A stretch of 63,276 nucleotides of DNA, the filler included, from Intoshia linei (lineage: Eukaryota; Animalia; Orthonectida), in NCBI GenBank assembly GCA_001642005.1. It is 6 parts of 6 records of this genome, joined end to end, with 100 filler letters (N's around TTAATTAATTAA, not from the genome) between each part and the next. Parts side by side here need not be neighbours in the genome. Positions count along the whole stretch, not along the records: positions 39,916 to 52,333 come from LWCA01001081.1; 5 more parts are not named here. One strand, 5' to 3'. Below the pieces are notes generated by a model. The model saw only the letters and a program-made list of their open reading frames with translations, did no database searches and had not been told where the DNA came from. This document shows, piece by piece, positions 10,900 through 62,945 of this stretch; positions within the stretch are counted from its first letter, which is position 1, and each line of letters starts with the position of its first letter. Made by a program: the position numbers and the translations under genes.

Positions 10900-11823
10900 G
10901 TTCATCAAAACACAAATCTTTAAATACTGTTATTCCTATACGAAAATACTTAAAAGTTCAGAGTGATTTTGCATTGGAAGTGTTAGAAGCTTTTTTGTGA
11001 ACAGACATACCATTATATAAATTAAATAATATAAAATTAAAAGAATTATTTATCAATATAGGTAAACCTTTCTGAAAATAACTGTCGTGGTAAAGTTGAC
11101 CTATTATATTCGAATGAAATTTAAAGAATTAAACTGTGTTGCTCAAATCAATTGATATTGATGATGTTAAATGAGACAGATTTAAATGGTGTTAAATATG
11201 TTAATGTTATGGTTGGTACGTTAGAAAACCATCAGAAATTAATTCTATTCGATTGTAAAAAAATTGATAGTAATATGAATGGCCAACTTGTGCTGCACAA
11301 TATTGATGATGTGATTAAATTGGCAAAATACTCATTTAACATTAATAAAGCATTTAACACATTACAAAATTTAAAATTTGTTCCAGATCCATGCAAAATA
11401 CTTCATTACATAGAAAAAAGGTTGAAAACCAATGAAAAATATAATGATGGCTTTGGATAAATCTAAACCTCCTTTACTGTACAGTAAATTAAGAAATGGA
11501 TCATCAACATCTAATAGAATAGAGAGAAGTTTTAGTATGTTGAATAAAACAAAACATCTATATAAACAAAATAACTTAACAAAACAAAGAAATTTTGCAC
11601 ATGACAATATAAAGAAATATTTAATATTGTACCATAATAAAGTATCAAATAATACTTTGTATTATTTGTATGACTTTCCAAGTAATAGTCACTTTTGTTA
11701 ATCGATGAAGGATGAATTTAACTGAAAACAGTTTATAAATTTTTTATAGGTTAATAAAGTTAAAAAATTTTTTATTATAGGTTACATTTTTTTAATTTTA
11801 TAGGTTATAAAAAGTTTGCCCTA
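10900..11823 (+). mobile_element. Degraded hAT-related (DUF659/CGGBP1-like) transposase relic
   Basis: Frameshifted fragments LEAFL*TDIPLYK, NETDLNGVKYVNVMVGTL and IERSFSML...RNFAHDNIKKYLILYHN; subterminal TTATAGGTT repeats before a GCCCTA end. Confidence 0.6.
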
Positions 11824-23988: not shown

Positions 23989-24972
23989 CATTAGACAACA
24001 CTGAAAAATACAGTTGCATAAAAATAATACCATCTTGTGGATAATCTAACACTGATTTCAATGATATATTATATTTATAAATTTTAGTTCATATAACCCA
24101 TTTATTAATACTTTTAATGTTGAAAAAAATATAACAAGGTTTCACTTCCATTCTTAAATTGAGTAATTATATCATTCAAAATAATGTTTACATTAAAAAG
24201 GTGAAGTTTTATAAGTTTGAATATTTATTTATTAATTTAAAATACATGCGTGCGAAATAAACGAAACATTATTATTGCTTTTTCTGTGTTGTATATTTGC
24301 CAAACATTAAAAAATCTTACTCTATAACTGATAAATGTAAAAATTTGATAATGCAAATATACAGTTTAATATACGAGAATCAACTTTGAAATCCCTCAAA
24401 TCTATATCAAACGTGCCATTCGTCTATAATGAGATTTAAAAAGAGATTTGTGACATCTAAAATATGGAAACATTCAGAAAGTGCGAATGACTGCTATTTC
24501 TATATTCTGAAAAGAAGAAAACAAAGCCTGAATAAATTAAGCCTTTACTTGTATCCGGCCACCAAAAGTTTAACTTTACCAATTCCAATGGAATTATATA
24601 ATTTAGTTTCATCATCTCAAGAAACAGTTGTTTCAATGTATACTGAGGAATATCCAAATCAACCAATTATTTATACAGAAAAAAAAATTTAATTTATTAA
24701 TATATTTTTTTTAAATATAAATAGCTAATAACCTTTTGATACTAATAAACTGTAAATAAAACTGATAACTAATCGAACTAAACCTTTTCCGTAAATCTGG
24801 ATTTAGACACTAGAATGTATTGTTANNNNNNNNNNNNNNNNNNNNNNNNNNNNNNNNNNNNNNNNNNNNTTAATTAATTAANNNNNNNNNNNNNNNNNNN
24901 NNNNNNNNNNNNNNNNNNNNNNNNNGGTCTCATGCAGATCCTCGAAAAAAGTTTTCATTTTGTTGTCTAGTG
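23989..24972 (+). mobile_element. Chapaev3-like (CMC) transposon relic spanning spacer 1
   Basis: Ends CATTAGACAACA and TGTTGTCTAGTG with a TAA flank on each side. Decayed N-terminal Cys-rich coding: YCFFC...SITD...IWKHSESANDCYFY...YPATKSLTLPIP. Confidence 0.55.
24826..24925. other. Assembly spacer 1
   Basis: N44 + TTAATTAATTAA (stops in all six frames) + N44 = 100 bp. Confidence 0.98.
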
Positions 24973-35060: not shown

Positions 35061-35160
35061 NNNNNNNNNNNNNNNNNNNNNNNNNNNNNNNNNNNNNNNN
35101 NNNNTTAATTAATTAANNNNNNNNNNNNNNNNNNNNNNNNNNNNNNNNNNNNNNNNNNNN
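35061..35160. other. Assembly spacer 2
   Basis: N44-TTAATTAATTAA-N44. Confidence 0.98.
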
Positions 35161-39815: not shown

Positions 39816-39915
39816 NNNNNNNNNNNNNNNNNNNNNNNNNNNNNNNNNNNNNNNNNNNNTTAATTAATTAANNNNNNNNNNNNNNNNNNNNNNNNNNNNN
39901 NNNNNNNNNNNNNNN
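39816..39915. other. Assembly spacer 3
   Basis: N44-TTAATTAATTAA-N44. Confidence 0.98.
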
Positions 39916-40487: not shown

Positions 40488-42405
40488 CAGTCAAATCTGC
40501 ATAATCCGAACATTGTATAATTCGAACATTGCGACTTTGAACAAATTATAGTATATTTTTTTACGGTTACTATACAATGAGAAAATTTTAATTTGAACAT
40601 TAAACTAAAAATATTTTCGAATATTAAGACAATTCAAATATATTATCATTTTATAGCGTGATTTTTTATTTTTTATATTGTAAGTATGAAGAATAAAAGA
40701 AAACAAGTAGACTTAAATTTAAAGGAAAAAAAAGATATTATTTGTTTCTATGATTAGAATCCACATTGTTTACAGCGGGAACTGGCAATTAAATTTAAAA
40801 TTTCCTTAGGTAAATATATTTAAGCTTTTTATAATATTAATAATGATAGGTACAATAAATAGAATCTTATCAAATAAGGAAAAACTTTTACAAATTGATG
40901 ATAACAGAAATAAAAGACAACGCAAACTTTCGAAAACGAATGCAATTGACAGCACTTTATTTAAATGGTTAGTTAGTAGACGTCATATGTATCATTCCAT
41001 ATCTGGCGATAGTCTCAAAATAATGGCCTTGAAATTAGCAGAATCTGCTAATATATTTAATTTTTGTGCCTCAACCGGATGGCTGAATTCCTTTAGAAAT
41101 AGATATAATATAAAATCAAAATTTTTGAAAGGAGAGTCAGGCTTCGTACCCGAAAGTTTGATTGATAATTTTAAACCTATTTACAAAAACAAATTAAAAG
41201 AATATAATTTTGACAATATATTTTATTGGTGATGAAACTGGTTTACTGTATAAAGGCACCGGAAATAGAAGTTTAGTAGCACATAATGACACTAACTTAA
41301 GCTATAAACAATATAAAGATAGGTTAACCATTTTATTTTGTGCCAGTATGTCTGGAGAAATTTTGGCATTATTGGTTATTGGTAAAGCTAAAAATATAAG
41401 ATGCTTTAATGGAAAACAAAAAACCTTTAAAAAGTTAAGTGTAGAATATTTTCACTCTAGAAATGCTTGGATGACTGCTGTTATATTCAACAATTGGTTA
41501 CTTAATTTAAATACAAAAATAAAAATTGAAAAATTTTGTTAACACTTGATAACGCACCAGTGCATTTTTATGGAATAGAATTGTCCAACATAGATTTCCT
41601 TTTTTATCCAAAAAATACTACGTCAAAATTGCAACCCTTAGACCAAGGTATAATAAAAGCATTCAAGGATAAATATAAATCCATTACGAAAAATAAGATA
41701 TTGTTTGAACTTGATAACATACATGATATTGATTATGAAACACATTTTGATTCAATAAAAAAAATAGACGTTTATGAGGCCCTGCTATCTATAAATCAGG
41801 CTTGGAGAGAGGTGTCGAATACGACAATTTCCAATTGTTGGAATAATGCAATAACAAATTCTAATATTGAATCAGATTACGAAATCGATATTATATTTGA
41901 AAATATATATGAAAAAATTTCTGAATCTGATAATATATTCATAAAACAATTCAGTGAAAATGAGAGGATGAAAATAGAGCAAGAGGATGAATGTACCAAA
42001 TCAACCATACCTGAAAACGATAAGTAGCTGCTTAAATTCAACTATTTAATCTATATTTTAGAATTATAACATTTCAACAATGTTGCAAATCGGTCGATGA
42101 CCTGGAATCGTGGTTTATGAACAATTGCAATGAAAAATTTAATTTAGTCTGGGATATAAGAGAGGTTTTGGTAGACCACAAAAGAAAATCCCAGTTTAAA
42201 ATAACTGATTATTTTAAACAAAAATAGATAATCCATTTATTAATTGAAATGTATAGTTAAACCAGTAATAAATATTTATAAGAATAAATAGCATTTTAAT
42301 AGTGTTCAGAATTATGTTTATATTTATATATATATTATATTATTGCGAATTATGAACTTTTTATTAAATCTATCCCAGGGTGTTCAGATTATACAGATTT
42401 GACTG
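40488..42405 (+). mobile_element. Full-length pogo/Tigger DNA transposon with disrupted transposase (40686-~42227)
   Basis: 25-bp TIRs CAGTCAAATCTG(C/T)ATAATC(C/T)GAACA and TA TSD. HTH-CENPB (ASTGWLNSFRNRY) and DDE motifs DETGL, DNAPVH and LQPLDQGII. One in-frame TAG and two frameshifts. Confidence 0.95.
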
Positions 42406-42649: not shown

Positions 42650-43100
42650 TAAACTCCACATTTCAATTACAGTTTTTTCCGGGTGATAATAAGATAAATT
42701 TCAACCGCACAAACTCACATCTTACGAAATAAAACACCAATTGTTTTTTTTTTGAAAATCAAACGAGTTGGAGAATTTAAAAAAATATATACACTGATAC
42801 GGACTTTAAAATCATAAACATTATCATACATTTGACATTCCCAAAGGTGCAGAAATAGATGAAAAAATAGTAATTTAACCTTTAAAAAGAAATTTGAAAT
42901 TATATTTTTTACCAAACCTTAAAAGTATGGTTTTTGTAACTACCCCTGAGCAAATTTTCCGATTTTTTTTTAACCATAACCTTGAAAGGGAATTTTGGTT
43001 TATTATTTTTAAATTCCCTTTAATGTTTAATTCAGAAAATCTAAACAAACCCTTCCTATACCTATTAAGATTCAAATTAATTAAAGATTTTAAGGGATAT
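42650..43100 (+). repeat. Dispersed repeat family A copy
   Basis: Similar to 6668-7085 (inverted) and 10570-10800. Confidence 0.55.
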
Positions 43101-44335
43101 CTAGCAAGATTAAAATATAATTACTAATAGTAATAATTTTATTTTTAACGATTAAATCTACACCGAAAAAGTTAATAAAATTATCTAATACAGGAATAGT
43201 GTACAGTTTACTAAGCGGAATTTAAGTTTTTATGGTTATAATTTCATGTGTCGATAGTATCCAGACACGTACAAGTAAAATGATTGTATCGCTAATAATA
43301 ACATTACCCAAAGAATCCAAGAAAACTAAATATTTTTTATTCCGTTAAAGAAAGAAGTCCAGTTTAATCGTTGAAATTGCTTGTAAATATTTGAAGTGAA
43401 AAAACACGCACAGTCAAATTTAAAATTTAAGTCGGCAGACAGACATAAAGTTGAAAAATAAATGTTAACTTGTTTCGATGTCATTTATTTCATAATCATA
43501 ACATGAAACAATTATTTTATCACTGCATATTATCGGGAGGATTTGGAGCGGCAACTACCATTTTTATAAAAAAATTTCTAACAAGTGAAACTACTTTTAC
43601 GGTAATGACTTTGATTAATCTTTTAAGGTTCACAACTTAGATGTTTACAAATTTGGCCATAATCTTAATATTTAATGTAATTATGTGGTATTTTTCCATA
43701 AATGCATTGGATTCGTCTTCTTCCACAGCAATGGCAGAATGTCTTATTACTTTTTTTAATATCATTTTTTCGGTAATGTCAATTATACCCTTCACGACGA
43801 CTAAAATATATTTAGACGATATTTGCAATCGCGATACACCAAACACAGTATTCATTAAAATTTATAATTGGAGTAATTTTTGTTAGTTTTGGTATAATGT
43901 TGTATAATTAAAATTAATCAAAATAGTATTGATCTCTTTTGCTCTTGCATATTGCTTTTCTAGCTTTTTTCCGTGGTGTAGATAATTTGACATTTCTAAG
44001 AATGGATTCATATGTGTTAAACGACAAATCGCACCTTTTTATAAAAATTTTCACCTCCACGTCAGAATCGTATTCGACTGATTTCAGTTTGGGAGTTGAG
44101 TTTCTCATATAATTCCGCACTAATCGTTGTGCCGCGTGATCTACGTAAATCGAATCTGATTCGTAATGCATTTTTAAAAATATGAATGAATAGTGGCTAT
44201 TCTATTTGGATAATTAGCGTAATGGATCAAAACATAAAAACCTAATAAAATGTAAAATAATTTAATATTGAATTACATATTTAATTTACAAATGGAATAA
44301 AATTATGGAACTATACCAAATTTAAAAGACGTACA

Positions 44336-47300
44336 TTATCTTTTTCTACCACCTCTCTCTTTAATTAGAAGAATAAATATGTCGTTACTCTTAATATTGT
44401 AGTGAGCCAATGAATTCATATCCTTAGCAAACAAACCCTATATATTAATTTATTGTAAAAATAGTAAATTACTCCAATTTGTATCTTTTGTTTTCCATTG
44501 GGTAGTTTCGTTTGTTCGCATATAAAATTTTTCACATCAGTTATCTAACAATAGTTTATAGTTATACAGAAAAATAGTAACACTAGCCATAATTGGGAAT
44601 ACGTTTTCCAATGTTCTTCCATCTAATTTCCAATCTGTTTTATCAGACACAACTGGTATTTGAATTTTGACAGTGATATCGTCAGGATTTAAAGCAGAAT
44701 ATTCTCCTTCTGGAATAAAGTGGTCATCCTTTGGCCTTTTCGGTCTCATAAACATTTGCTCGTGGCGCATCGGCATTCCCATGGGATGAAATGGAGGCAT
44801 AGGGTGTGGATTCATCATAGGCATAGGTCTAATCATATGCATTGGCTGGGGCGGTGGTAGCTGAATCATGGGAATATTTATTCCTGGTCCAGGAGGCATG
44901 TACTGCGATTTCATTTGTTCTGGTTTTGGTCTCATAACGTGTTGAATCTTTACCGATTCAGACATTTTTATATTTTCAGATGGTGGCTCTGATATGTTCA
45001 TTTTGTCAACTTTTTTGGGCCCAATTTTCTCTTTGTCTTCGTCGTGGCTAAATATTACATTAATAAAAAGTAAAATAGTTTTATTTCATCATAAAACAAC
45101 TAAAATTAAAATTTGAAAAAGTATCTGAATCAATCACTATAAACATAAATATTTATACATCAAAAGCAAGCAATAACACAACTATATACAACCATGAACA
45201 ATCTTCATTTACAAGACTCATATGACATAAACACAGAGATATCTAAAAAATATTAGTGAAATGAACTTCCATCAATTAGAAAATAATGATGATTTAATCG
45301 ATCAGGTAAAAAAATTAAAGGGTTCTAAGTTTTTCATGCGTGAAAAAGATTATATTCTCAATAGTCCGCTGATCAATGATGACCTGGTACATTTTTACAA
45401 TTATTCTGATAACCCGTCAGCCACTGATAATATACAAAAAAATCATTTACTATGGTCAACCCATTCCACTCAATGCATAGATCCAACCTTTAATACCAAT
45501 ACCCTATTTAACATATTAATCTTATATTATCATGATCCCACTGAAAATGTATTTAAAACATATAAGAAAATAATAACCATATTCAAACATGAATATAATG
45601 TACCTTCATGTTTAATTAAGACCACACAAACTTTCAACAGCTTAAACATCAATAACAATTTAAATGAACGAATAGATCATTTTCAAGAAAATGTTAGATT
45701 CATCTTAGAGAGTAATTCCACTCAAAATGTTTTTTCTTCTGAGTGGTCGAATCAGAATTATCTCAGAAATAGTTAATATAGCTAATTCTATGGGAGTTGT
45801 TGATAGACGAAATTTGTTGACCCGCATCTCTGCAATGTATCGAATATCCGTTCAATATTATATTTTAAAAGATAACCATTGGGAATGTGAAATTAAAACT
45901 ACCCCATTTGGACCGATTTTATTTAACGACCATGATTTTTGGTTCGAAAAACATTCATTAATTAGAAATCTCAACTCAATGCTAAATATAAAAGATATCT
46001 TAAACTCCAGAATCAACTCTGTAATATGTATTTCACTTCTGAACACGTTCTTATACACCTCACTTTATATATACCCTATTCAAGTTTTACAAAGCCGGAT
46101 ATACTCTTATCTAGGTCTGGTGACAACGGTTATGAAGTTATTAAGAAAATAAAGCCTTTATGCAATGCAATTTTTTATAAAATTGTCAGAGCGTAATCTA
46201 TCTATAAAATCGGACAGTGATTTTCACGAGGTAATAAAAAATGCTTATCTTGAATTACTCTCCAAATAGAATATAATAGAGGGTACATCTTAATGCCTTG
46301 ACATAATCTACAACACAACTAATTAATACAATCTTCAATTTCTATTGGGGTGTTACCGACATTGGGGACATCCATTCATAGACTACATACCGTCAACATA
46401 TCAGACATTAAAAAATTAAACCTAAAAATTAGTTATAATAGAACTCATAAATTTAAGTTACCAGGAATTCGAAACTTATGTACTTACCAACATATAATTA
46501 CGGAAAAATCGAACTATGTATAAAAAATTTTTAATAAACCTCTTGTGTTCTACATCTCTCAAAGTAAAAATATATTAAAATGTCACGCCTCTTTAAAGAT
46601 AGGTCTAATAACCATTAATAAAGACATTATTATAAAACCCCAAATAAACAACATCAATATAAATACAGATAAATTGAATTTTGATTTTTTAAGAACCCTT
46701 AACGTAATAACATAAATACCAGGCCTTTGTACTTTGAAACCACATGAAATCAAATTGACTGACAACAATGCTGGAATAAAATCCCATAACTTTCCCACAC
46801 TCTAATAGTAATATCTTAAGTTTAATATCTACTGACAATAAAATATTAGAGGAAATAGATAGATTGGGGCAAATTTACCCTCAACAAGTAATATGCGTTC
46901 GCCAAAATTATCATCAATATCATATCAATGTACAAATTCACATTAAAACAAGAGGAAATGAAAGATATTAAAATCGAAATTCCATTTAATCGAGCAAATG
47001 GATTCATAAAATTTTTCATCATTTCTCAATTTAAATTAGTGTCAATAAAACTACGGTTGGAGATTTTTTTTAAAAATTATATAATTTGAAAATTCAAAAA
47101 AATGAAATGTTAATAAGTAATTGAATAAGTTGCCACACAGATTCAACTGAATTAATAAATATTTGGAATAAAAATTATAATTACGTTCATGTTTTAATAC
47201 ATTACTCTCCTTAATCTTGATCAAACGTATAATTACTGATAATATATTATGTTAATCATACAACTTATCCATCCAGGGTCATATAATGGTCCGATCATCA

Positions 47301-50300
47301 CAGGCATATTATTCTAGATACGAGGTCCCAAACTGATTTGGTCTACCGCCCTCCCCTTTTAGCAATGTTTCCAACGCCCTTGAAAAATTTTCGAGTCAGG
47401 GTGCACAACCTTTCCATCAATTATGCCGCAAAGCCACTTTACGCATTGATACTACGGCCACACAAAATTTAATTTGACTTTAAGAAAGTTTAAATCCATT
47501 TGAGAAAGTGAGCAAAATCAAAAATGTAACATTTTGATAAAAATATTTCCCTTGAATTTGAAGTAAAATGATATATTGTAACATGATTACATCGATTGCC
47601 CACCGTCGCATATAAACGTTATCACGGCTACATGCGGTCGTAAGGCCGCAGGTTGCGCACCCCAAGCTTGCGATATAAAACTCCCCTTATAACCAAAAAA
47701 TTCATCAATCCCCCACTCTATTATATTATTCTATACTATATCATATTTTTTAAAATCGCCCAGTCGCTTCCAACAGAATTAATTCCTCACTTTGGGAACC
47801 CCTGTTCTAGATCAATAGGTGATTTTAGGAAAATTGTTCGTATGAGCAAATTTTTGTTAATCCAGCAGAGTAATGGTGAAAAAAAGATTGGAAACCGTTG
47901 TATTATACAATAAATAGAGGAAACAAAAAAACATTGTATATGCATAATTGTGTATACTAAATGCACTATATAAGCCTTTATGTTGGGGTTTTAATCCTTT
48001 TTATATAATTGTATATCATTCCACCCAATATTCCACGTATGAGTGGAACTTTTGTATTTTCGCAAAAAAGTGAAAAAATTCACACCCTCTAATATATGGT
48101 CTACATTTTTAATCTAATTTTGATTTTTTCAAATTTATTTAATCCGAATGAAAATGTTTGGTGTGACTAATTTAAAATGTACAACATTAAGGTATCATAA
48201 ATCATTTATACATATATTTACAAATTATCACCGAAATTTGAAAATATTCAGAAACTAAAAACAGTTCCTTTTAGTTTTAACAGTATAAATATAAATATTT
48301 TTCCCTGTAATAGGACAATCGTAATTTTTCATATATAGTCATAAAGAAAATTCAAGAATTAATAAAATTAAAATGACACAAAACCAAAAAATTTCATAAC
48401 CAGGCACATTCATTAAAACAAACTAAATTATAAATGTTAGTTTTACTTGGGTTGTCACTGATTTGCTAAAAAATAGCTGAAAAAAATTACACAAGTCCCT
48501 GAGATCTATGAATAATTTTGATTTGATCTTCAATTGTAATATCTTTCCTAGCGCGTTGTGAAACACTTTCAATAGACGAAGCATGTCCATCCCAAGTGAT
48601 TCTTTCTTCCTGTTTAGGTTTACTAGAAGTGTCTTCACCAATCTGAAAAAATTGTAACCAAAAATTAATTAGTGCAAACCTTTCTACCAATTTGTGCTTC
48701 TTCAGATCCGTAACCGAAAATGTCAGTTCTACGTTCCGCTAACCTTTTAAGGTTAGAACTAACATTCATTCCAGTAGCCAAAATAGCTGCAGCTTGATGT
48801 TTATCTGCCATTCGTTCTCTTTCGCGATTATTTATCCAACTTGGATCCAATAACCCTAAATTGTAAATAGAAACAAATTATTAAAATATTACCATATCTC
48901 ATGTGATCTGAAACATCGTTCGATGTCATTTTTTGTTGAGTGAGTGGGGAAATAAAATTTAAATTTTGATCCGACATGTTCTGTTTGCTGGCTAAAATAC
49001 AATATACGCTGTCTCATGATACATTTACCTTTTGGGTCATAATTGTGCCTTACAATACTCTCTGGACCTGGAACAGCTGGCGGTGGCATTAAATGATCAT
49101 CATTGAAATTAGAATCCACAGAAATCTGTGGAGTATCGGGTATCGATTGTTTCTATAATTAATACATCAATTTCACGTGTCAATAAATATTATAAAATTA
49201 AAATTTAAAACAATCACTTGAAAATAAACCAAAAAACAGATTTTTTAAATTGATGGTTAAAATATACGTTTCTGCTACTTAATATTTGAAATAATAAATT
49301 ATTACCACGGGTTCAACTTCATTATCTAAACTTCCCAGTTGATAGTTGCTTTCAGAAAATCTACTTTCCTCTAAAACACGATTTCCCACCTCTTCTGGAG
49401 TAGTAGGTGGAGGAAAATTGCCATACTCTGTAGACTTATAATCTACGACTTCAACAACGACAAAAGAGTGCCAATCAATCTGAGAATACAAAATTCTCTG
49501 TCGTTCGGCATTAGCCATTTCTTTTTCCTGTTGACATTTACGATATTTGCACCAACGTACACGATAAGCAATGTTTTCATTAATCTTAAAAAAATAATAA
49601 ACTACCGCCCAAAGTTCTATACCTTTCTAACAGATATTGACATGTCATTAATCTCATTAATCATTGATCTTTTCGGTAAAAATACTTTAGAATACTGACT
49701 GACGAGTTTTGTAAAATATGGATAATAACTATGTTGTGGTTTCAAAAAGTCAAATTGAGAATTTCTACTTTCTCTGGAAAGAAGATTATCAAGAAAAGAT
49801 CTTCCATTCCTAGCAACAAATGTGGCAGTTAATTTCAAGGTATCTCTAAAATATAAATACAAAAAATATAAAAAAATGTAACAATTCATCCAAGTTTATT
49901 GTAGGAGCATCTACAATAAAAGTCAATTCTGATGGTGGATCCTTTAATGGTGGTTCATCGATAATTTTCAATTGTTGCATATTATTAATGGTAGATTTTA
50001 GTGTGGTTCTCTATTAAAATTTACAATGAAAAAATATTTCATAAACCTTGGAATCTTCCTTCGTTTTTTCAGCTAAATTTTAATGAAATCATGATATATG
50101 CCTAAATTACGCTTTCCATCTTTACATTCTTTTACTTTCTGTTGATAATATGCGTGATAGGGATCTCCAGTATTGAGAAAATTAAATTTAGTGTTGTTTT
50201 CTTCATTTTTTCGAATTCGATTAACAAAATCAGTTCCCATTCGTGATACATAATCAGCGGTAGTGTCAATAATGTCTGAAAACGTATTAAAACATAAAAT

Positions 50301-52333: not shown

Positions 52334-52433
52334 NNNNNNNNNNNNNNNNNNNNNNNNNNNNNNNNNNNNNNNNNNNNTTAATTAATTAANNNNNNNNNNN
52401 NNNNNNNNNNNNNNNNNNNNNNNNNNNNNNNNN
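52334..52433. other. Assembly spacer 4
   Basis: N44-TTAATTAATTAA-N44. Confidence 0.98.
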
Positions 52434-60473: not shown

Positions 60474-60573
60474 NNNNNNNNNNNNNNNNNNNNNNNNNNN
60501 NNNNNNNNNNNNNNNNNTTAATTAATTAANNNNNNNNNNNNNNNNNNNNNNNNNNNNNNNNNNNNNNNNNNNN
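60474..60573. other. Assembly spacer 5
   Basis: N44-TTAATTAATTAA-N44. Confidence 0.98.
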
Positions 60574-61149: not shown

Positions 61150-62945
61150 TATAAAACCCTGACTTTATTCTTTCTTGCATAAGACACGGCATTATATCTT
61201 TTTTTGTTAATCGTAACCCCATTAAAATACAGGATAATGCGTTATCCCAATTTTCATCATGGCACACTGTACGCAATCTTTTAGGTATCGTTCTATTCAT
61301 ACGCTCAACCAACCCATTTGTTGATGTTGATGCTGGTATGGGGCAGAATGGGTTTTATGTATCTTATATAGATTACATAAACGTGACATTACATCGCCTT
61401 CAAACTGTTGAGCCATATCAAAATGGATTATTTTTGGTGATCCAAACTTGCAAATGATGTGAGCCAATATGGCATCCGAGATTGAAACAGCATCAATATG
61501 TGCTAAAGGGGCGGTTCCACCCACCCTGAGAAATGATCCACCATAACTAAGATGTAACAATTAGAATTTACTGTTTCGGGTAACGGACTTAGAACGTCTA
61601 CCTGCCATAAATCATTAAAATAATTGGATTCCACGTGTGTCAAAGGTTTACAACGATTATGGTTTCTGTGTTTGTTAGTATTACAATCCGTACATTTAGT
61701 TATATAGTGTTTAATATCACGATACATATACGGCCAAAAAAATGTGGTACGAATATTAGAAAATGTTTTTTGTAGTCCAGGATGACAAAATGCCTGTGAC
61801 TCATGATAAAATTGAATTATAATTAGTATGTTGGCTTCCGTTACTAAAATAAGTGAGATTTTTTTACGACGAAGATATACTATTTGATTGTTTACATAAA
61901 TATTCAAATTTTTTCCAAGGATTAAATAACAACATTGTTTCACCATGTAAGATTTATTGAAGATATATGTTATTTTGAATTTGAGGAATATCTAAACCTG
62001 TATATTTTATAGCATCACATCCTTATTTCCAGTACGAGATAATAAATCCTCTGTATAATTTACCAGGACGATATTCTAATGAATAATCAAATTCATCCAG
62101 TTTTAACATTCAACGTATCAATTTCGGTGAAAGATTTTGAGACTTCCTCTGGTGATGTATCGGATTATGATTTGTAATTATAGTCACATGCCACTTTAAA
62201 ATATACTGTCTAAACTTCTGTAAATTTTTTAGTGTAACAAACTTTTTATTGATACAATTAACTTGAGAACCAGTATCTAACATAAAATTTAAACGAACCT
62301 TGTCACTCATATGGTCAAAAGACAATTCCTCAACAATATTTTCCTGATTATAAATTGCATTAACATTGACATTCGTATTGATTGAAATTTGTTTCTTTGA
62401 TTTGGCACTTTACGTGAAATATAAGTTTATTACAATTGTAACTTTTCATTGGTTAATTGACTTGCTGAGACTTATGTACTTCAATGATGCCACTATATTT
62501 CAAGCAAATATATTTGCAATCACTCCATTTCAACAAATCCTGCAAAAATAATTCTGTTTCAATTTTGCTACAATTGATACCAAAGCATAATTGATCACGC
62601 AGTCGTTCATTAATATCCTTAAATTCACATTGCCGTGAAACCTTATGGAGACGGCAAATATAATGTTCAATGCGTTCATGGGGATATCGTTCCGTTTTTT
62701 GAAAATTCTTTTGATTTAATGAAACGTTAACTGATTCTCATTTGAGAACCTCAGTTTTATAACTCGTGTATTGGATTTTACATTTGATTCCTCTAAACGT
62801 CTCCGAGCCTCTTTACCGATTAAATCTTTGAATAAAATGAATTGCTTATCCATATCCATTTTGGTGTCGCTTTTGGAATTCCATTGCACGATTAATTCAA
62901 AGTTTTCAATCCACTCGGTTGGCGTTATCGAAAATTCGCCATTAG
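61150..62945 (-). mobile_element. Degenerate Ty3/Gypsy LTR-retrotransposon internal region
   Basis: gag (TEWIENFELI); protease FMLDTGSQVNCI; RNase H tail LDEFDYSLEYRPGK; integrase HHCC (HES..CHPG..FFWP..CTDC) and core WQVDV...LVMVDHFSGWVE. Confidence 0.9.

What the first reader, a model, noticed from the sequence alone, without database searches (positions are those of the whole stretch)
45194..46386. Endogenous rhabdovirus-like L-polymerase fossil hidden in the SF3A1 intron
Seen: an intronless, frameshifted ~400-codon reading on the + strand inside the 3443-bp SF3A1 intron. Four motifs appear in the expected order and spacing: DYILNSPLINDD, FGP...MLNIKDILNSR, GDNGYEVIKKIKPLCN and GCYRHWGHPFIDY. 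Known: DYxLNSPL and RHWGHP are conserved in the N-terminal region of rhabdovirus L proteins (recalled from VSV and rabies virus). Inference: a negative-strand RNA virus infected the germ line of this lineage. If the host is an orthonectid-like parasite, this may record an undescribed virus-host association. Host exons flank it on the same contig, which argues against viral contamination.
Basis: partly seen in the sequence, partly recalled or inferred. Interest (0 to 1): 0.92.

Follow-up and report, generated by a model that had tools for sequence, protein, structure and literature searches.

The report
Rhabdovirus fossil in a parasite's intron
A broken piece of a rhabdovirus-like polymerase gene sits inside a spliced intron of the tiny animal parasite Intoshia linei, likely a dead relic of a past infection by a virus lineage that nobody has sampled.

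Summary
Confirmed. Window 45194 to about 46540 (+) is the first fifth (about 420 of 2100 codons) of a mononegaviral L gene, broken by at least three frame changes and six stops. It passes Pfam PF00946's cut-off (E 1e-8), and its only solved-structure matches are rabies and VSV L. It lies antisense in a 3443-nt SF3A1 intron that RNA-like contigs splice out exactly. One DNA contig joins it to host exons, and contigs of a second study hold it with the same breaks. The host is the orthonectid Intoshia linei. Best relatives are only 24-27% identical, while stop counts suggest 4-9% decay since insertion, so the donor was itself a distant lineage. Trees put it beside all VSV/rabies-type rhabdoviruses, but on a long branch whose place is not settled. 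A second, diverged copy probably lies elsewhere in the genome. No catalytic core is present, so no polymerase is made. It is a new member of a well-known class (non-retroviral endogenous viral element) in a phylum for which I found no rhabdovirus report. A virus-type RdRP gene of unstated family was already mentioned for this species. Real and useful, not a new mechanism.

The parts
44582..45047 (-). SF3A1 exon downstream of the long intron (proline-rich part)
   Evidence: Piece of the spliced contigs in runs X3 and X6 (table 8); neighbouring exons carry Surp and PRP21_like_P
45048..48490 (-). 3443-nt GT-AG intron of SF3A1; about 90 times the median of the introns seen here
   Evidence: Joint 45047 to 48491, ends CT..AC on +, in runs X2, X3, X6; median of the 15 listed joints 38 nt
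45175..45183 (+). Possible rhabdovirus gene-start signal (AACAC-nn-CT), 19 nt before the first ATG; weak
   Evidence: Pattern seen before L in natural relatives (AACACnnCTC 7 times, AACAGnnATC 17 times); 9 such sites on the window's + strand; chosen after seeing it
45194..46540 (+). Decayed rhabdovirus-like L fragment, about residues 1-420; frame changes near 45760, between 46040 and 46100 and near 46190, probably one more just after the ATG; six stops from 46267 on
46324..46366 (+). Most conserved motif; also matched (35 of 43 bases) by a different contig in runs X1 and X2: candidate second copy elsewhere in the genome
   Evidence: table 8; chance of such a match over this motif about 1e-4
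46541..47400 (.). Unassigned single-copy DNA on the same contig; A/C-rich on + like the fragment, but no significant L similarity
   Evidence: 6 of 25 shuffles reach the best near-diagonal score
47400..48090 (.). High-copy short repeats in the same intron
   Evidence: Dozens of contigs laid, summed depth up to 607 against 11 beside it in run X1
48491..48642 (-). SF3A1 exon upstream of the long intron
   Evidence: Joints at 48491 and 48642

Best explanation
This is a broken front fifth of a rhabdovirus-like L gene lying antisense in a spliced SF3A1 intron of Intoshia linei, likely copied from viral L mRNA by a host retroelement, inserted in the germ line and likely decaying without function since. 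Shown: identity, position, breaks, splicing, host. Inferred: the mRNA template (it spans one gene and begins near the L start), reverse transcription by a host retroelement, and neutrality. It is tolerated because the intron is still cut out exactly. The donor was likely a distant, unsampled rhabdovirus near the base of the VSV/rabies-type group, and it likely left at least one more copy.
For: PF00946 above cut-off. Only rabies and VSV L match among solved structures (E 7e-8 to 3e-6) though filo- and paramyxovirus-sized L chains are in that library. Motif left out, 74 relatives of the VSV/rabies type average 89.5 against 51.5 for 66 others, shuffled 32-35. Trees: 97/92 for grouping with that type (95 SH-aLRT). 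DNA contig 43053-47473 in one piece, no gaps. Run X2 of a second study covers 45715-45900 and 46021-46260 without gaps, so the breaks are not errors of this assembly. No N between 39915 and 52334. Host exon 100% identical to a protein named Intoshia linei, next hits 42-49%. Five differences from run X1 in the fragment, 2 synonymous and 3 not, fit neutrality (20-26% synonymous expected). Retroelement remains at 61503-62737. Single-transcript span is the rule for RNA-virus insertions (PMC2987831, passages).
Against: Identity is only 23-27%, and the first 181-codon piece has no hit by itself. No target-site duplication, poly-A tail or LTR was found, so the route of insertion is not shown. The tree branch is long and of odd composition; AU tests reject neither a place beside lyssaviruses (p 0.35) nor with the non-alpha rows (p 0.068). 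Relatives were fetched by a motif, so flatworm and fish gamma-type rhabdoviruses may be missing. Run X1 may be the window's own source. Five differences have little power. No contig spans the whole intron.
Confidence: 0.85

Rival explanations
1. The insert is real, but the donor virus infected the invertebrate in which the parasite's plasmodium lives, and its RNA reached the parasite's germ cells without a lasting virus-orthonectid association.
For: The trophic stage is a syncytium inside the host that makes the germ cells (PMC6543705, passages); parasite rhabdoviruses pass between parasite and host (PMC9241645 section 9). No replicating relative was found.
Against: A probable second copy and an earlier mention of a virus-type RdRP gene in this species suggest repeated exposure of the germ line; inference only.
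Confidence: 0.2
2. The donor was a mononegavirus outside the VSV/rabies-type rhabdoviruses (another subfamily or an unnamed family); the tree place is a long-branch effect.
For: End branch 2.4; AU p 0.068 for grouping with the nine non-alpha rows.
Against: The DYxLxSP motif is in 72 of 74 relatives of the first set and 8 of 66 of the second; both hits in 1.84 billion representatives are rhabdovirus L.
Confidence: 0.12
3. The fragment is kept for use: a housekeeping gene turns out intron RNA antisense to viral L mRNA, which is cut into antiviral small RNAs, as in mosquitoes.
For: Antisense orientation in a transcribed intron; low-depth contigs inside it in runs X2 and X3; 98.6% of mosquito EVE transcription is antisense (PMC7161354, passages).
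Against: Orientation is an even chance; mosquito sources are mostly intergenic clusters; the differences look neutral; no small-RNA data, and the Piwi set of this species was not found in print.
Confidence: 0.07
4. Contaminant or chimeric assembly.
For: Parasite samples can carry host material; no single contig spans the whole intron.
Against: An RNA virus gives no DNA reads; the piece is broken; it is on one DNA contig with host exons and is found with the same breaks and shared variants in a second study.
Confidence: 0.02

Closest known systems
Rhabdovirus-derived endogenous viral elements of ticks and mosquitoes (PMC2987831, passages)
   Same: Fragment of a single viral gene, L-derived, no clear target-site duplication or poly-A tail, weak basal placement in rhabdovirus trees
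   Different: Host is a spiralian parasite with a very compact gene structure; insert is intronic in an essential gene, not in a repeat cluster
L proteins of Xinzhou dimarhabdovirus 1 and European bat lyssavirus (P0001, P0002), rabies 6ueb and VSV 5a22/5chs
   Same: Collinear N-terminal region with the same four motifs
   Different: 24-27% identity; about a fifth of the length; broken; no polymerase, capping or methyltransferase part
Rhabdoviruses of parasitic flatworms (PMC9241645, section 9)
   Same: Deep-branching rhabdoviruses of spiralian endoparasites, some near lyssaviruses
   Different: Those are intact, exogenous viruses; I could not tell whether any was in my tree, so kinship is untested
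Mononegaviral EVEs of the acanthocephalan Pomphorhynchus laevis (PMC12548735, passages)
   Same: Decayed, multiple rhabdovirus-like polymerase insertions in a parasitic spiralian
   Different: Those cluster near Cytorhabdovirus; this one scores with the VSV/rabies type
Virus-family RdRP gene in the predicted proteome of Intoshia linei (PMC6396948, section 13)
   Same: Same host species; RNA-virus polymerase sequence thought to be acquired from a virus
   Different: That screen needed a near-complete domain in a predicted protein, so it is not this fragment; its family is given only by a figure colour that I could not see

Membership tests
Non-retroviral endogenous viral element | Significant similarity to an RNA-virus protein and no better cellular match | tested here: met
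   all significant hits are L proteins
Non-retroviral endogenous viral element | Joined to host DNA | tested here: met
   Run X1 contig 43053-47473 holds SF3A1 exons and the fragment; spliced joint links the exons on both sides
Non-retroviral endogenous viral element | Inherited: present in independent samples | tested here: met
   Short low-depth contigs in 2 of 3 runs of a second study, sharing variants with X1; junction itself not covered there
LINE-type retrocopy of a viral mRNA | Target-site duplication and poly-A tail | tested here: not met
   None among the repeats found; ends are decayed, and insect EVEs lack them too
Mononegavirales L (PF00946) | Score above the curated cut-off | tested here: met
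   33.8 bits against 27, profile columns 202-351; 30.5 bits for 285-389
Functional L polymerase gene | Open frame with catalytic core and C-terminal domains | tested here: not met
   Frame changes and stops; core and C-terminal profiles find nothing in the window (best E 0.3-0.4)
Rhabdoviridae, VSV/rabies type (Alpharhabdovirinae-like) | N-terminal DYxLxSP and RHWGHP motifs and best similarity to this group | tested here: met
Rhabdoviridae, VSV/rabies type (Alpharhabdovirinae-like) | Falls inside the clade in an L tree | tested here: inconclusive
   Sister to all 16 sampled rows (97/92, then 96/86), long branch; AU p 0.35 and 0.068
Rhabdoviridae | Gene-start and gene-end signals | tested here: inconclusive
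   Start-like site at 45175; no full stop signal (five A's at most nearby)
Rhabdoviridae | N-P-M-G-L gene order | not testable with these tools
   Only L sequence is here; 148 other reading frames of the relatives give no hit in the intron's + strand; no whole host genome held
EVE-derived piRNA source | Antisense 24-30 nt small RNAs from the element | not testable with these tools
   Only contigs were available

The most novel reading that the evidence does not exclude
Orthonectids carry, or recently carried, their own undescribed rhabdovirus lineage that branches outside all sampled VSV/rabies-type genera; it entered the germ line at least twice, recently enough (under about 10% decay) that a living relative may still be found, and it would extend the idea that alpharhabdoviruses arose among viruses of spiralian parasites.
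Probability: 0.35. Interest if true: 0.7.

Novelty: new member of a known kind. Interest (0 to 1): 0.5.

Why it matters
It is heritable evidence that a rhabdovirus-like virus reached the germ line of an orthonectid, a phylum for which my searches found no rhabdovirus (supplements). The donor has no close relative among 1.84 billion protein representatives, so it marks a gap near the base of the group that holds rabies and VSV, where flatworm-parasite viruses are argued to sit. It also shows that a genome with 38-nt introns tolerates a 3.4-kb intron in a splicing-factor gene. It gives virus hunters a target; it brings no new mechanism.

Tried and rejected
Pfam on the unbroken pieces alone: no L hit. 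Word-indexed protein searches: no hit among 531 candidates of 369-2000 residues and 213 of 792-2520; weak evidence, but a close relative should have shown. ESM Atlas gave no answer. No whole genome held, so other viral genes could not be sought genome-wide. No RNA holder was listed by record; runs X2, X3, X4 and X6 behave as RNA by their spliced joints, and the low-depth intron contigs may be pre-mRNA or stray DNA, so I draw nothing on expression. Extension of L past 46540: a by-eye likeness at 46837-46905 scores 13.4, reached by 6 of 25 shuffles: rejected. Rfam: one match far below cut-off. No LTR, terminal inverted repeat or target-site duplication. Dicyemid or myxobolid host, considered from intron size: their medians are 22-27 nt and settles it. 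Earlier findings of this scan: none in three look-ups. Folding and complex prediction were not run: a broken fifth of a protein would add nothing. One flaw in my trees: 15 codons (46047-46091) were read in the frame of the next piece, not that of the profile path; 15 of 424 residues in a poorly conserved stretch.

Full report
Observation. The unbroken pieces give no Pfam hit alone, but one frame read with stops as X matches Mononeg_RNA_pol PF00946 at 33.8 bits, E 1e-8, above the cut-off of 27; 2 of 11 readings matched it, both of this frame. Among solved structures the same frame matches three sequences, all rabies or VSV L (E 7e-8 to 3e-6), collinear with rabies L 225-422. A natural rhabdovirus L used as query finds many other L chains in that library, so the absence of those is informative.

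Extent and breaks. I fetched natural relatives by motif (18 loci; 115). They map collinearly: L 31-45 to 45336, L 195-378 to 45826-46386, some on to about 46540. A profile of 75 of 114 frames (those with a whole N-terminus) scores 80 bits in a frameshift-aware alignment against 14.0 +/- 1.5 for 30 shuffles; without the fetching motif 61 against at most 15.9; the reverse strand gives 17. At least three frame changes separate the motif-bearing pieces (near 45760, between 46040 and 46100, near 46190; the profile path uses four), the first ATG at 45194 is in yet another frame, and six stops fall between 46267 and 46540. Profiles of the polymerase core and C-terminus find nothing in the window, and 46541-47400 is unassigned. 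The element is the first fifth of L and cannot make a polymerase.

It is in the host genome. In DNA-type run X1 one contig covers 43053-47473 with 12 other letters and no gap, so SF3A1 exons and the fragment are on one piece; this run may be the window's source. Runs X2, X3 and X6 of a second study skip 45047 to 48491 with splice ends, which proves the 3443-nt intron. X2 and X3 also hold short low-depth contigs inside the fragment (45715-45900, 46021-46260, 45729-45899) with no gaps and with variants shared with X1, so the frame changes are real and the element is in other samples. The other joints listed are 35-153 nt, median of all 15 being 38. High-copy repeats fill 47400-48090.

Host. A 174-residue exon of the Hsp110 gene in the window is 100% identical to a protein named Intoshia linei; the other 119 listed hits are 42-49%. 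That is phylum Orthonectida. Intron sizes fit: mostly over 30 nt in the orthonectid, 22-27 nt medians in dicyemids and myxobolids (PMC6543705 and PMC13644364, passages).

Which virus. With the motif left out, 74 relatives of the RHWGHP set score 89.5 on average, 66 of a second set (60 of 72 loci with a long frame, plus six moved over) 51.5, shuffles 32-35; DYxLxSP is in 72 of 74 and 8 of 66. A scan of 1.84 billion representatives gives two hits, 24% and 27% identical: Xinzhou dimarhabdovirus 1 and European bat lyssavirus L. Trees of 87 and 27 rows put the element as sister to all VSV/rabies-type rows (95; 97/92), on a branch of 2.4 with odd composition. AU tests reject neither a place beside the lyssaviruses (p 0.35) nor with the non-alpha rows (p 0.068). 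So 'rhabdovirus-like, nearest the VSV/rabies type' is supported, a deeper claim is not. Calling that type Alpharhabdovirinae is my label from recall; the loci carry no names.

Age. About 5.5% of single-base changes here would give a stop, so three to six stops imply 4-9% substitution since insertion (95% limits 1-20%). This is rough, since frames were picked partly by lack of stops. It still means that most of the 75% distance from known viruses belongs to the donor lineage. Five differences from X1 (2 synonymous, 3 not) fit neutral drift, with little power.

Second copy. At 80% likeness a different contig, 740 nt in X1 and 756 nt in X2, matches only 46324-46366 (35 of 43 bases), at the same distance from one end and with the same loose ends in both runs. 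About 1.3 chance matches of that quality are expected somewhere in the stretch, but only 1e-4 over this motif (simple base-composition model). A diverged second L-derived copy is the likely reading; I could not fetch it.

How it likely arose. RNA-virus insertions span single transcripts, which points to mRNA templates and host retroelements, and insect ones lack target-site duplications and tails (PMC2987831, passages). Here the similarity starts at the start of L, a start-like signal lies 19 nt before the ATG (weak: 9 such sites on the + strand), no other viral gene is adjacent, no terminal repeats were found, and retroelement remains lie in the window. These steps are inferred. Survival is explained by exact splicing (shown). 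A small-RNA role as in mosquitoes (PMC7161354, passages) is possible because the intron RNA is antisense to L, but nothing here tests it.

What is known. Rhabdovirus insertions are common in arthropods (listings) and known in an acanthocephalan (PMC12548735, passages). Flatworm parasites carry deep-branching rhabdoviruses (PMC9241645, passages and section 9). Searches for orthonectid viruses or insertions listed no such paper; Intoshia is absent from the text and two supplements of PMC12548735, from the one held supplement of PMC10101049 and from the main text of PMC11097642. Against full novelty: PMC6396948 (section 13, passages, seven supplements and the preprint text) says that the predicted proteome of Intoshia linei holds a virus-family RdRP gene; the family is in a figure that I could not see. 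It needed a near-complete domain, so it is not this fragment. Subscription papers, figures and preprint supplements were not searched. PMC6736024 and PMC7943196 were seen as passages only and add nothing on viruses.

Verdict. The observation and the reading hold. It is a new member of a known kind, in an unusual host, from an unsampled virus lineage, probably with a second copy. Interest 0.5.

Noticed in passing
window 46324-46366; runs X1 record 2 and X2 record 7: A second contig of about 750 nt matches only the most conserved L motif: likely another, diverged L-derived insertion in the same genome.
   Followed up: partly
window 43482-43995: A + strand gene with GT-AG introns at 43600 and 43771 runs tail to tail into the 3' end of SF3A1; RNA-like contigs join the two, so their ends may overlap.
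   Followed up: no
window 40810-42027: Pogo/Tigger-type transposase (HTH_Tnp_Tc5 and DDE_1) in three overlapping frames, 2.5 kb from SF3A1.
   Followed up: no
window 61503-62737: Remains of an LTR retrotransposon (integrase zinc finger, rve, RNase H-like) on the - strand.
   Followed up: no
window 47400-48090: Short high-copy repeats in the same intron, with sharp ends near 47400, 47578 and 48087 in many contigs; element type not identified.
   Followed up: no
window 24826-24925, 35061-35160, 39816-39915, 52334-52433, 60474-60573: Five gaps of the same build: 44 N, 12 bases, 44 N; none touches the finding.
   Followed up: no
window 11125-11701: Two overlapping intronless frames of 111 and 91 codons without Pfam hit; may be a decayed mobile element.
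   Followed up: no
PMC6396948 section 13: An apparently near-complete virus-family RdRP gene is reported in the predicted proteome of this species and seems not to have been followed up.
   Followed up: partly
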